DNA of 64,000 bases from a virus. Position 1 is the first letter of the stretch; each line of letters opens with the position of its first letter. The notes under the pieces are model-generated. The model was given only the letters and a program-made list of their open reading frames with translations, made no database searches and had not been told where the DNA came from. The stretch covers positions 20,036 through 84,035 of the IMG/VR virus record IMGVR_UViG_3300029258_001506; one strand, written 5' to 3'. Shown here one piece after another: positions 46,789 to 49,167 of this stretch. The translations under genes were made by a program, and so were the position numbers.

Positions 46789-47083
46789 GGAACGACAGAA
46801 GCTGATCGAGCGAGTCCGATCTCTGCTCCGCCTCGCAGACCCAGCTCGTAACCCGGAGGAGAACGAGCGGACCTCCGCGCGGACCGAGGCCCAGCGGCTG
46901 ATCACCAAGCACCAGCTCACGCGGGCCGAGGTGCTCGGACAACCGCGGCCGATGCCGCGGCCGATGCCGTGGCCGGTGAACATCTACCGCGGCCCAATGT
47001 GGTACCCGATGGCGAGCACCGCGACGACGTCGACCACCTCGAACACCGTCGGGACGGTGTTCGTCAGGGTCACGATCGGGTGA
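46781..47083 (+). CDS. DUF2786-like protein
   Basis: KLIERVRSLLRLA...E..SA...AQRLITKHQL. Confidence 0.65.
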   Translation: MIRERQKLIERVRSLLRLADPARNPEENERTSARTEAQRLITKHQLTRAEVLGQPRPMPRPMPWPVNIYRGPMWYPMASTATTSTTSNTVGTVFVRVTIG

Positions 47084-49167
47084 TGCACTCCCACGAACAC
47101 ACATACTCTGTGCCGGCCGAGGGGTTCGCAACCCTTTGGCCGAAGTGCGCGGCCGGCGACGATCTGCGCACGGCCTGGGCTGTGGCCGAGGTCGATCCGC
47201 GGTACCCGCGCGCGGCGTTCGGGTTCGCACTCGAGCAGGGGGACACGAGGATCCGGCTCGAGGCCCAGCGCGTCGACCGGGCTCGGATGGTCGCGCTCTC
47301 GATGCTCGACTCCGGTCCGGTGACGCTGTACGAGGCGATCGCGGCCGGGCACGGTGACCAGCTCCTATACAGGCGACTCGAGCAGCTGGACAAGTACGAA
47401 CCGTCAGAAGCGCCAGGAGCCGCTCTCCCGGTCTCCTCGGCTGGCGTGATACTCGCCAAGGGGGCGGCCGCTCCGTCGGTTCTGGAAGCGGCTGCGCAGT
47501 CTCTCGCGGGGAATCTGTCGAAGCTCGACGCGCGCTGGTCAAAACCGCTGCTCAAGAAGTTCCTGGCCCAGCTCGACATCGATTGGGGCAACGCGACCGG
47601 CGAGCAGATCGACCAGGCGTTCGTCAAGGCCGACCGCGTGATTCGGAAGGCGCAGTTCGAACCGCTGATCGCTCCCTGGATCAAGCGGACGACCGTCGAG
47701 CTGTGGCGGACGGCGACGGGAACGCGCGACTACATCCGGCAGACGTTCCTCCCGCGGGTCGGACCGACGTTCTCGATGCCGGACCGGCGCGCGATCCAGC
47801 AGATCGCAACCCAGCAGGGATGGTTCCTCCGCGGGCAGATGGGTCTCCGCTCCGACAGGATCACGGCCCGCGGCCGGGAGATTGTGCAGTCCGGTCTCGC
47901 ACAGGGGCTCGGCCGCGGGCAGATCGGGCGCGACTTGAAGCTGGCGCTCCCGGATCTCTGGAACCGGTACGGCAACAATTACGCCAGGGTCGTCGCGTCT
48001 GTCGCGGTCAACCGCGCGCGATCCTGGGGCGAGGTGCTGAGCTACCGCGACGCGGGGATCGAGTACCTCGAGCTGCAGGCCGTGCTAGATGAAGCGACGA
48101 CGGTGTTCTGTCGGTTCATCGACGGACAGATCATCTCCGTCGACAACTGCTTCGACCTGCTCGAGAAGGGCGCCGCGGTGCAGAAGCCGGAGGACATCAA
48201 GCGGGTCAACCCGTTCATGGTCCAGCGGCGCGACCAGGAGACAGGGCAGCGGTACATCGCAACGGCCAACGGGACCAGGCTCGCCGACATCGTCCGCTCT
48301 GGTGTTGGCATCTCGAGCCCGCCGTCATCGATGACCGACGCTCGCGGGACGTTCAACGCTCGCATGATGGGGAACCAGCTCCCGAACGCGTTGATCGGTG
48401 CTCCTCCGTATCACCACTTGTGAAGGACAATCACTGTTCCGGTGGAACAGATTTTTCGAGTCCCGGCCGGATACCAGGCAAGGTCGCTGGCCGGTGCAAT
48501 ACCGTCGGCCAAGACACCCCAGCTTCCGCCGCGGCCGACGACGGTGGCCGGGCTGCCGGCGGCGATGTTCGCGGCGCCGGCGGTCGCGTCTCGCGCGTTC
48601 ACTCCTGAGCAGATCCAACGACCGGCGCTGCTCGTTCCGGAGCCGACACCGGACTTCCCGACGATGACCGGAGAGCTACCGCCGGACGTCGACGATCCGT
48701 TCGAACAGTACGGTCTCATTGAGAACGTGTCCATCCGGCGACAGGCGATCCGGCGGATGCAAGACGAGGCCAAGCGGATCAACGAGCGGCTGTCACAGGC
48801 GGTCGACAAGAACGGGGGACAGGCGCTCACGATCAAGCGCAAGGGAGAGATCATCCGCGACGGGTTCAAGGGCAAGGAGAAGCCACCGACACCGGAGAGG
48901 GAGAAGGCCCGCGGCATGACGGACGAGGCGCTCGCGGCGGCGCAACGGATGTTCGCGTTCGACGGGGATCCGTTCGTCGACAACGGTGTCGAACTGCTCC
49001 TCGGTCGCTGGGGCGACATCTCCTGCGGCGGGGAGCCACGCCAGCTCGAGGCCGTCGTCCAGGCCGCGCTCGAGCCGGGCCGGGAGGCGACGCTGGCGAT
49101 GCTCTGGGATGTCAACCCGGAACACGTCGGGATCGTCGCCGCCGCGGCGAAGGGGGCGTTCCGGTGA
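47083..49167 (+). CDS. head morphogenesis protein (SPP1 gp7/Mu F family) with in-frame UGA at 48421-48423, candidate selenocysteine
   Basis: AVLDEATTVFCRFIDG...PPYHHL[TGA]RTITVP; ORFs 47083-48423 and 48442-49167 are in the same frame. Confidence 0.75.
48425..48463 (+). promoter_or_regulatory. bacterial SECIS-like stem-loop
   Basis: CTGTTCC-GGT-GGAACAG (48434-48450), starts 10 nt after UGA; lower pairs AAT/ATT and GGAC/GTCC. Confidence 0.65.

What the first reader, a model, noticed from the sequence alone, without database searches (positions are those of the whole stretch)
47083..49167. Candidate phage selenoprotein: UGA at the conserved Cys of the head-morphogenesis protein, followed by a SECIS-like hairpin
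Seen: the SPP1 gp7/Mu F-like ORF ends PPYHHL-TGA (48421-48423) and the same frame continues RTITVPVEQ... for about 250 more codons to 49167. Established: this family carries a PPxHxxCR motif, so the TGA sits exactly where the Cys belongs. Seen: 10 nt after the UGA is a perfect 7-bp hairpin CTGTTCC-GGT-GGAACAG whose loop starts with G 17 nt from the UGA. It can be extended by AAT/ATT and GGAC/GTCC. These codons end unusually often in A/T for this genome (ACA, ACT, GTT, ATT, TTT, CGA), suggesting RNA-level constraint. Established: bacterial SECIS elements such as E. coli fdhF are hairpins just 3' of the UGA with a G(U)-containing apical loop. Inference: the phage uses the host SelB/tRNA-Sec machinery to make a Sec-containing virion protein. 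This would tie full-length protein to host selenium status or host range. I know of no described tailed-phage selenoprotein of this type. No sel genes are in this window.
Basis: partly seen in the sequence, partly recalled or inferred. Interest (0 to 1): 0.92.

Follow-up and report, generated by a model that had tools for sequence, protein, structure and literature searches.

The report
Phage head protein with selenocysteine codon
A 98-kb uncultured phage, and at least six related phage lineages, carry a UGA stop codon exactly where their Mu F/gp7-type head protein otherwise has an invariant cysteine; the gene continues in frame, so the UGA is most likely read as selenocysteine by host machinery, which would make this a selenoprotein built into a phage particle.

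Summary
ORF 47083-48420 ends ...PPYHHL-TGA, and the same frame runs 247 more codons to 49167.

Evidence that the UGA is decoded:
- The TGA is identical in three independent metagenome assemblies.
- PPxHxxCR is invariant in this Mu F subfamily. Of about 137 representatives at 50% identity, 120 have Cys there and 17 end exactly there. None has another residue, and none ends 1-7 residues later.
- All ten distinct truncated loci whose DNA I could read have TGA followed by conserved R[ST]xT[VI]P. The frame then stays open for 247-805 codons, or 8 codons in natural short forms.
- The tree needs at least 6-8 Cys/TGA switches.
- The downstream part is under purifying selection and is collinear with the C-terminus of single-ORF Cys homologues.

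Hairpin evidence is mixed. Folding energy is no better than shuffles or Cys homologues. However, a hairpin with a GU-containing loop starting 17-23 nt after the codon occurs in 8 of 9 TGA loci against 5 of 47 Cys loci (a rule I chose after seeing the data). Two short forms share the geometry with 6 of 7 stem pairs compensated.

The phage has no sel genes or tRNAs, and its host is unknown. Selenocysteine is therefore inferred, not shown. I found no published phage selenoprotein. This scan has flagged similar Mu F/minor-head cases on other DNA.

The parts
47083..48420 (+). Upstream 446 codons of the head-morphogenesis (Mu F / SPP1 gp7-like) gene. It contains the invariant D336, T339, C343, H444 and ends PPYHHL.
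   Evidence: Translation. PF04233 at 23-25 bits, below the 29.6 cut-off. TIGR01641 at 32.3 bits, below 39.65. phrog_13868 at 3e-37. The portal gene 43204-45120 lies upstream. 61 of 62 subfamily members hit PF04233.
48421..48423 (+). In-frame UGA at the position of the invariant Cys of PPxHxxCR. This is the candidate selenocysteine codon (residue 447).
48425..48463 (+). SECIS-like stem-loop. The upper stem is 48434/48435-48440 with 48444-48449/48450, and the loop is GGU (48441-48443). The lower stem is AAUC/GAUU (48429-48432 with 48450-48453). The outer helix is GGAC/GUCC (48425-48428 with 48460-48463).
   Evidence: It is the minimum-energy fold of 48424-48463. The stem needs rare codons ACT, GTT and GAA. 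The nearest TGA relative L001 has the same hairpin with one compensatory pair, A-U to G-C. Stability is not above shuffles.
48424..49164 (+). The 247-codon continuation. RTITVPVE completes the Mu F core. It is followed by a Pro/Ala-rich linker and a C-terminal extension ending LAMLWDVNPEHVGIVAAAAKGAFR.
   Evidence: The frame is open. It is 48% identical to the continuation in L001 (E = 1e-73). It is collinear with residues 379-711 of the single-ORF Cys homologue P0005. It has no Pfam, PHROG or Atlas match of its own.
49165..49167 (+). Ordinary TGA stop of the full-length gene, overlapping the GTG start of the next gene (GTGA).
   Evidence: TGA ends 56 of 152 ORFs with coding-type GC3 in this phage, so TGA is not reassigned genome-wide.

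Best explanation
The gene 47083-49167 is one 694-codon gene for a virion Mu F/gp7-type head protein with a C-terminal extension. Its codon 447 is a UGA that is recoded rather than used as a stop.

The most likely mechanism is the bacterial selenocysteine pathway. The host's SelB-GTP-Sec-tRNA(Sec) complex binds the stem-loop that starts 10 nt after the UGA (loop GGU, 18 nt downstream). It delivers selenocysteine in place of the family's invariant cysteine. Release factor 2 competes, so a 446-residue truncated product is probably made as well. The phage supplies only the UGA and the RNA signal. tRNA(Sec), SelA, SelB and SelD must come from the host.

Shown here: the UGA, its exact correspondence to the invariant Cys, its recurrence in many lineages, the conserved translated continuation, and a hairpin of the right geometry.

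Inferred: that the residue is selenocysteine, that SelB reads the hairpin, that the host is Sec-competent, and that two products are made. The biochemical role of the Cys/Sec is unknown. It sits with C343 and H444 among the few invariant residues, which suggests a metal or redox site.
For: -: a single frame runs across the TGA.
- the PHROG match rises from 129.5 to 141.8 bits when the TGA is read through.
- Cys is invariant. 120 representatives have Cys and 17 stop exactly there. None has another residue and none ends at +1 to +7.
- ten distinct loci all have TGA, never TAA or TAG. All have R[ST]xT[VI]P next, then 247-805 in-frame codons. The short forms L079 and L080 have 8 codons ending at the family's normal stop.
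- at least 8 state changes on the tree, 6 of them forced by well-supported branches.
- downstream dN/dS is 0.145 between two TGA phages, matching 0.141 upstream.
- L074 (TGA) and L007 (TGT) are 96.6% identical. Near the codon they differ only at the codon itself and at the loop-closing base.
- the continuation is collinear with a single-ORF Cys homologue.
- the TGA is present in three assemblies.
- SECIS-like geometry in 8/9 TGA loci against 5/47 Cys loci.
- the L079/L080 stem has 6 of 7 pairs compensated, an identical loop CGUGUA, and a non-coding 3' arm.
- compensatory pairs within two other clades.
- rare codons build the window's stem.
- TGA is otherwise a normal stop in this phage.
- PMC4607533: bacterial SECIS elements share a 5-6-bp hairpin a few nt after the UGA, with an invariant G in the loop.
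Against: - The host is unknown. No close prophage relatives exist in 185,579 species genomes and the nearest cultured phages are remote. Sec competence of the host is therefore untested.
- The phage has no selB, selD or tRNA(Sec).
- Hairpin energies are not better than dinucleotide shuffles, synonymous-codon shuffles or Cys homologues.
- RNAalifold finds no common structure on the codon-anchored alignment.
- One TGA lineage (L077) has only a weak 4-bp candidate, and further downstream.
- The geometry rule was framed after seeing the TGA hairpins, and the lineages are not fully independent.
- I had no protein, selenium or RNA data.
- bSECISearch and deep-Sep were not available.
Confidence: 0.7

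Rival explanations
1. SECIS-independent leaky termination. This would be programmed readthrough by a near-cognate tRNA, such as Trp or Cys. It would make a fixed ratio of a short Mu F core and a long Mu F-plus-extension protein, as in Q-beta A1.
For: The UGA lies close to the boundary between the conserved core and the variable extension. UGA followed by A or C is a weak stop context (my own knowledge). Hairpin stability is not above chance.
Against: A ratio-setting stop could sit at any nearby codon. Here it is always the invariant Cys codon, in at least 6 independent switches. The short forms L079 and L080 have the same TGA with only 8 codons after it, so there is no extension to regulate. 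Trp at an invariant Cys would probably be non-functional. The hairpin geometry is associated with TGA.
Confidence: 0.13
2. SelB- and hairpin-dependent recoding that inserts cysteine rather than selenocysteine. It would use a tRNA(Sec)-like tRNA charged with Cys, as reported for some bacteria (my recollection of work by Mukai and colleagues, not checked here).
For: It fits everything that fits the Sec reading: the Cys position, the hairpin and the recurrence. No data here identify the residue.
Against: By my recollection such tRNAs are rare compared with canonical Sec decoding. No such tRNA is encoded by the phage.
Confidence: 0.05
3. A true stop. On this reading the gene is split into a truncated Mu F (446 aa) and a separately initiated downstream gene, for example from GTG 48442, as gene callers annotate it.
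For: Gene callers predict exactly this in the window and its relatives. In-frame GTG codons follow the TGA.
Against: - The codons between the TGA and the GTG keep the family motif R[ST]xT[VI]P.
- The PHROG profile alignment continues across the TGA.
- In L003, L004 and L025 the called downstream genes start 150-260 nt later, although the frame is open and conserved from the TGA onward.
- The split would have to recur at one codon at least 6 times.
- Short forms have nothing downstream to express.
- In Cys relatives the two parts are one ORF.
Confidence: 0.09
4. Sequencing or assembly error, or a nonsense mutation in a dead phage genome.
For: TGA is one substitution from TGC or TGT. Only contigs, not raw reads, could be examined.
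Against: The sequence is identical in three assemblies from three studies. Ten distinct loci from unrelated samples have TGA at the same codon. The genome is complete with terminal repeats. The downstream sequence is under purifying selection. No other stops interrupt any of the 57 distinct loci analysed.
Confidence: 0.02

Closest known systems
Bacterial selenoprotein genes with an in-ORF SECIS (prototype E. coli fdhF; hairpin model of Zhang and Gladyshev 2005, as described in PMC4607533)
   Same: An in-frame UGA aligns with Cys in homologues. Sec-type and Cys-type forms alternate among relatives. A short hairpin begins about 10-13 nt after the UGA, with G/GU in a small apical loop. The ORF continues downstream.
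   Different: The gene belongs to a tailed phage with no sel genes, and it encodes a structural virion protein rather than a cellular redox enzyme. The hairpins differ in register between lineages and are thermodynamically unremarkable. No host or selenium evidence is available.
Mu F / SPP1 gp7 head-morphogenesis (minor capsid) proteins, PF04233 / TIGR01641, including Mu F proteins with C-terminal effector domains (PMC5512222, PMC5576092)
   Same: The gene sits just downstream of the portal gene. It has the Mu F domain signature, including the terminal PPxHxxCR, and variable C-terminal extensions of 250-800 or more residues.
   Different: This subfamily has an insertion of about 85 residues between the CRxxDG and PPxHxxCR motifs, and it scores below the curated cut-offs. 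By my recollection of the family, it keeps only two of the usual cysteines. The extension matches no known toxin or effector domain, and no UGA recoding has been described for the family.
Poxvirus selenoproteins (glutathione peroxidase homologues of molluscum contagiosum virus and fowlpox virus; PMC8310308)
   Same: A virus-encoded gene with a Sec UGA that relies entirely on the host's Sec machinery. In fowlpox the SECIS lies inside the coding region.
   Different: Those are eukaryotic viruses with captured cellular enzymes and eukaryotic SECIS/SBP2 decoding. Here the virus is a bacteriophage, the protein is a native virion component, and the signal is of the bacterial SelB type.
Programmed UGA readthrough in phages (Q-beta A1 protein)
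   Same: A UGA inside a structural gene gives a minor extended product needed in the virion.
   Different: In Q-beta the inserted residue is unimportant (Trp) and the site is not a conserved functional residue. Here the UGA always replaces an invariant Cys.

Membership tests
Bacterial-type selenoprotein gene | In-frame UGA aligned with Cys in homologues | tested here: met
   There are 120 Cys and 17 stops at one invariant position, with no other residue.
Bacterial-type selenoprotein gene | UGA-containing orthologues in other genomes, with conserved sequence on both sides of the UGA | tested here: met
   Ten distinct TGA loci. Downstream dN/dS is 0.145.
Bacterial-type selenoprotein gene | SECIS: a hairpin shortly 3' of the UGA, with a small apical loop containing G/GU at about 16-37 nt | tested here: inconclusive
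   Such a hairpin is present in the window and in 8/9 TGA loci against 5/47 Cys loci (post hoc rule). Covariation is seen (6 of 7 pairs). However, there is no energy excess and no common register. bSECISearch was not available.
Bacterial-type selenoprotein gene | Decoding organism has selA, selB, selC and selD | not testable with these tools
   The host is unknown. The phage itself lacks selB, selD, tRNA(Sec) and all tRNAs.
Bacterial-type selenoprotein gene | Selenium is incorporated in the protein | not testable with these tools
   This needs 75Se labelling or mass spectrometry.
Mu F / SPP1 gp7 head-morphogenesis family (PF04233, TIGR01641) | Match to the family model at the curated threshold | tested here: not met
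   PF04233 scores 23.3-25.1 bits against a cut-off of 29.6. TIGR01641 scores 32.3 against 39.65. The matches are significant by E-value (1e-7 to 1e-4), and 61 of 62 subfamily members hit PF04233, the best at 2.7e-12. I read this as a divergent subfamily.
Mu F / SPP1 gp7 head-morphogenesis family (PF04233, TIGR01641) | Position in the head module next to the portal gene | tested here: met
   The portal gene 43204-45120 matches annotated portal proteins. The same order is seen in related loci.
Mu F polymorphic toxins | Recognisable C-terminal toxin domain followed by an immunity gene | tested here: not met
   The extension 48424-49164 has no Pfam, PHROG or Atlas match. Immunity was not examined.
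Genome-wide TGA reassignment (codes 4 / 25) | TGA is not used as a stop, and many in-frame TGAs occur in genes | tested here: not met
   TGA ends 56 of 152 coding-type ORFs, including this gene and the portal. No other convincing in-frame TGA was found.

The most novel reading that the evidence does not exclude
A widespread group of roughly 95-100-kb, GC-rich environmental tailed phages builds selenocysteine into a virion head protein. These phages have switched between Cys and Sec at one invariant residue at least six times. Production of the full-length head protein would then depend on the host's Sec machinery and on selenium supply. This would be the first bacteriophage selenoprotein family, and Sec-competence would become a host-range or fitness determinant for a virus.
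Probability: 0.65. Interest if true: 0.85.

Novelty: new variant of a known kind. Interest (0 to 1): 0.8.

Why it matters
Selenoproteins are known from cells and from two poxviruses. In the searchable literature I found none described for bacteriophages.

If a phage virion protein carries selenocysteine, several things follow:
- A virus would depend on an optional host translation pathway and on a trace element, which links selenium availability and host Sec-competence to phage fitness.
- Standard gene callers would be splitting this gene wrongly in many phage genomes. All TGA forms here are annotated as truncated proteins.
- The invariant Cys of the poorly understood Mu F/gp7 domain would be marked as chemically active, in a redox or metal role.
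- The repeated Cys/Sec switching offers a natural experiment on why Sec is chosen over Cys.

Tried and rejected
**Hairpin thermodynamics, all negative**
- Best local hairpin energy, TGA against Cys loci: Mann-Whitney p = 0.16.
- z-scores against synonymous-codon shuffles: TGA mean -0.11 against Cys -0.26, p = 0.66.
- Dinucleotide shuffles for single sequences: z from +1.5 to -1.6.
- RNAalifold on eight codon-anchored TGA sequences gave no consensus pairs, because the hairpins lie in different registers.

**Host identification failed**
- No close relatives exist in the species genome collection. The only hits were two remote Cys-type homologues in Heliomicrobium MAGs.
- The protein has no match in cultured phages. 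The portal is only 21-31% identical to Streptomyces, Rhizobium and Aeromonas phages.
- An Atlas look-up of the DnaB-like helicase gave no host signal.

**No phage-encoded Sec machinery**
- No tRNA is found in the 98-kb genome.
- No selB or selD is found.
- The tRNA-Sec model gives only 13-15-bit hits, against a cut-off of 47. They fall on two tRNA-like minihelices that have no UCA anticodon arm. I rejected these as tRNA(Sec).

**Structure did not reveal the role of the Cys**
- The core model is confident (pLDDT 91).
- It has no PDB relative by sequence, by Foldseek or by VIA-align. The best VIA-align Z is 7.3, and that covers only the helical N-part.

**Other checks**
- Other in-frame stops in the phage turned out to be adjacent genes in the same frame.
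- DNA could not be fetched for P0023, P0028 and P0124.
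Full report
**What is there**

The window is part of a complete 98,187-bp IMG/VR phage genome with direct terminal repeats and 64% G+C. 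In its head module, downstream of the portal gene (43204-45120), an ORF starts at ATG 47083. It reads through 446 codons to ...GAPPYHHL and meets TGA at 48421-48423. The same frame continues RTITVPVEQIFRVPAGYQAR... for 247 codons to a TGA at 49165-49167, which overlaps the next gene's GTG.

The protein is a divergent Mu F / SPP1 gp7-type head-morphogenesis protein:
- PF04233 scores 23-25 bits, below the 29.6 cut-off.
- TIGR01641 scores 32.3 bits, below 39.65.
- phrog_13868 matches at E = 5e-41.
- 61 of 62 members of the subfamily hit PF04233.

The PHROG match rises from 129.5 to 141.8 bits and extends by eight residues when the TGA is read through.

**Is the TGA real?**

Contigs from three runs of three different studies, at depths 19, 16.5 and 3, are identical to the window over this stretch. 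These are assemblies rather than raw reads, and two of them may be the source sample. Even so, an isolated assembly error is very unlikely given what follows.

**The Cys/TGA alternation**

A word-indexed search found homologues that either continue ...PPYHHxCR[TS]xTxP... or end exactly at PPYHHL. An exhaustive HMMER search of 1.84 billion representatives gave 1,166 hits. Among the best 150 together with the earlier set:
- 120 proteins have Cys after the PPxHxx motif.
- 17 end exactly there, counting P0065, which my first pattern missed.
- None has any other residue.
- Protein ends fall at offset 0 (the truncated class), at +8 to +15 (natural short forms) or at 30 or more (long forms). None falls at +1 to +7.

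In a 62-sequence alignment of the core, the only invariant residues include D336, T339, C343, H444, C447 and R448 in window numbering.

**The DNA of the truncated forms**

I could read DNA for ten distinct TGA loci: the window, L001, L003, L004, the L025 group, L072/L073, L074, L077, L079 and L080. In every one the stop is TGA, never TAA or TAG. It is followed in frame by R[ST]xT[VI/L]P, as in the Cys forms.

The frame then stays open for 247 to 805 codons and ends where the Cys relatives of the same clade end:
- L025 runs 604 codons against 599-603 in its relatives.
- L004 runs 805 against 772.
- L003 and L072 run 281 and 261 against 291 and 257.

Two loci run off the end of their contig first: L077 after 134 open codons and L074 after 8. 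In the two natural short forms (L079, L080), eight codons (RSVMLAAV, RSMAEPIV) follow the TGA before the family's normal stop.

**How often did the switch occur?**

A maximum-likelihood tree was built from the region upstream of the motif. It needs at least 8 changes between the TGA and Cys states, 6 of them forced by well-supported branches. L074 (TGA) and L007 (TGT) are 96.6% identical in DNA.

**The downstream part is translated as part of the same protein**

- Between two TGA-bearing phages (L003, L072), dN/dS is 0.145 downstream and 0.141 upstream.
- The window's continuation is 48% identical to that of L001 (E = 1e-73).
- It aligns collinearly, from the residue after the Cys to the C-terminal motif LWDxNPEHVG, with the single-ORF Cys homologue P0005 (E = 8e-15 and 2e-10).

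This disposes of the "independent downstream gene" reading and of the pseudogene reading. TGA is an ordinary stop elsewhere in this phage, ending 56 of 152 ORFs with coding-type GC3, including this gene's own end. The other same-frame stop junctions are simply adjacent genes. Genome-wide reassignment is therefore excluded.

**The RNA signal**

It is built from rare codons: ACT 3.6%, GTT 6.5% and GAA 13% of their synonymous sets. Seven of 15 codons end in A/T against 12% genome-wide (p = 0.001). The 7-bp stem would arise from genome codon usage with probability about 7e-4. The nearest TGA relative, L001, has the same upper stem and a lower stem with one compensatory pair, A-U to G-C.

Other TGA lineages have different hairpins at a similar distance:
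- L025: GUGCC-GGU-GGCAU.
- L004: loop CCGGGU.
- L003 and L073: GGUGC(C/U)N-CGUGU-... with a U-A to C-G swap. That pair is broken in the Cys form L007.
- L079 and L080: a 13-nt spacer, a 7-bp stem and an identical loop CGUGUA. Six of seven pairs are changed on both sides, and the 3' arm lies beyond the stop codon, so coding cannot explain the pairing.

I then applied a geometric rule: a 3-6-nt loop containing GU that starts 17-23 nt after the codon, closed by at least 6 bp with at most one irregularity. It is met by 8 of 9 TGA sequences and 5 of 47 Cys sequences (Fisher p = 7e-6). I framed this rule after looking at the TGA hairpins, and the lineages are not independent, so the p-value overstates the case.

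*Evidence against a signal.* Folding energies do not separate TGA from Cys loci (p = 0.16). They are not lower than synonymous-codon shuffles or dinucleotide shuffles. RNAalifold finds no common register. L077 has only a weak candidate.

The described bacterial SECIS core is a 5-6-bp hairpin a few nucleotides after the UGA with an invariant loop G (PMC4607533). The elements here fit that description but are not proven.

**What could not be shown**

The phage encodes no tRNA, selB or selD. The only tRNA-Sec model hits score 13-15 bits, against a cut-off of 47. They fall on two tRNA-like minihelices without an anticodon arm.

The host is unknown. The runs holding the phage are sediment and seawater metagenomes.

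The role of the Cys is also unknown. The core folds confidently (pLDDT 91) but has no solved relative. Published work treats Mu F as a virion protein that carries C-terminal effector domains into the host (PMC5512222, PMC5576092). It says nothing about this cysteine.

**Interpretation**

A UGA that replaces one invariant Cys again and again, with conserved translated sequence on both sides, is the standard comparative signature of a selenoprotein gene. A hairpin of suitable geometry accompanies it. I put 0.70 on SelB-dependent Sec insertion by host machinery, probably alongside a truncated 446-residue by-product.

The rivals are:
- SECIS-independent readthrough: 0.13.
- A true split gene: 0.09.
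- SelB-dependent Cys insertion: 0.05.
- Error or decay: 0.02.

**Novelty**

My literature searches found selenoproteins only in poxviruses among viruses (PMC8310308). Recent bacterial selenoprotein surveys and databases mention no phage or Mu F family (PMC13326102, PMC12013277).

Earlier notes of this scan report similar UGA-for-Cys cases in Mu F or minor-head proteins of other phages (e1-5347869, e1-4274642). They are unverified and no sequence similarity to this window was found. I did not count them as evidence.

Noticed in passing
window 8095-8136 and 20000-20085: Two tRNA-like minihelices with an acceptor stem and a canonical T arm (GGGTTCGAATCCC / GGGTTCGACTCCC) but no anticodon arm. They give weak sub-threshold hits to the mascRNA, tymovirus tRNA-like and tRNA-Sec models at 13-21 bits. 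Similar weak hits lie at about 7.3-7.5 kb in two related phage genomes (G001, G003). They are not tRNA(Sec), and their function is unknown.
   Followed up: partly
whole phage genome (G000): Among 152 ORFs with coding-type GC3, TAG is the commonest stop (77), ahead of TGA (56) and TAA (19). That is unusual for a 64% G+C genome. No tRNA genes were found in 98 kb.
   Followed up: partly
L079:4366-4402 and L080:1862-1898: Short-form Mu F proteins only about 30% identical to the window's also carry TGA at the Cys codon, eight codons before their normal stop. A 7-bp hairpin with the identical loop CGUGUA spans the true stop codon. These may be the cleanest SECIS candidates of the family.
   Followed up: yes
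locus of P0028 (no DNA held), gene upstream of the portal: The large terminase of a related TGA-bearing phage carries Hint and LAGLIDADG hits, which suggests an intein in the terminase.
   Followed up: no
L079:4748-7024: In a related phage, a 758-residue protein after the Mu F gene combines a D12-class adenine methyltransferase domain with an S78 prohead protease domain.
   Followed up: no
representatives P0027-P0074: Many Cys-type members of this Mu F subfamily are 1,000-1,390 residues long. The C-terminal extension after the Cys is therefore highly variable in length, as in Mu F proteins that carry effector domains. The window's extension of 247 residues has no recognisable domain.
   Followed up: partly
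window 48424-48468: A 22-nt block (48431-48452) is identical between the window and L001, although the two genes are otherwise saturated at synonymous sites (dS about 1). This is consistent with selection on the RNA.
   Followed up: partly
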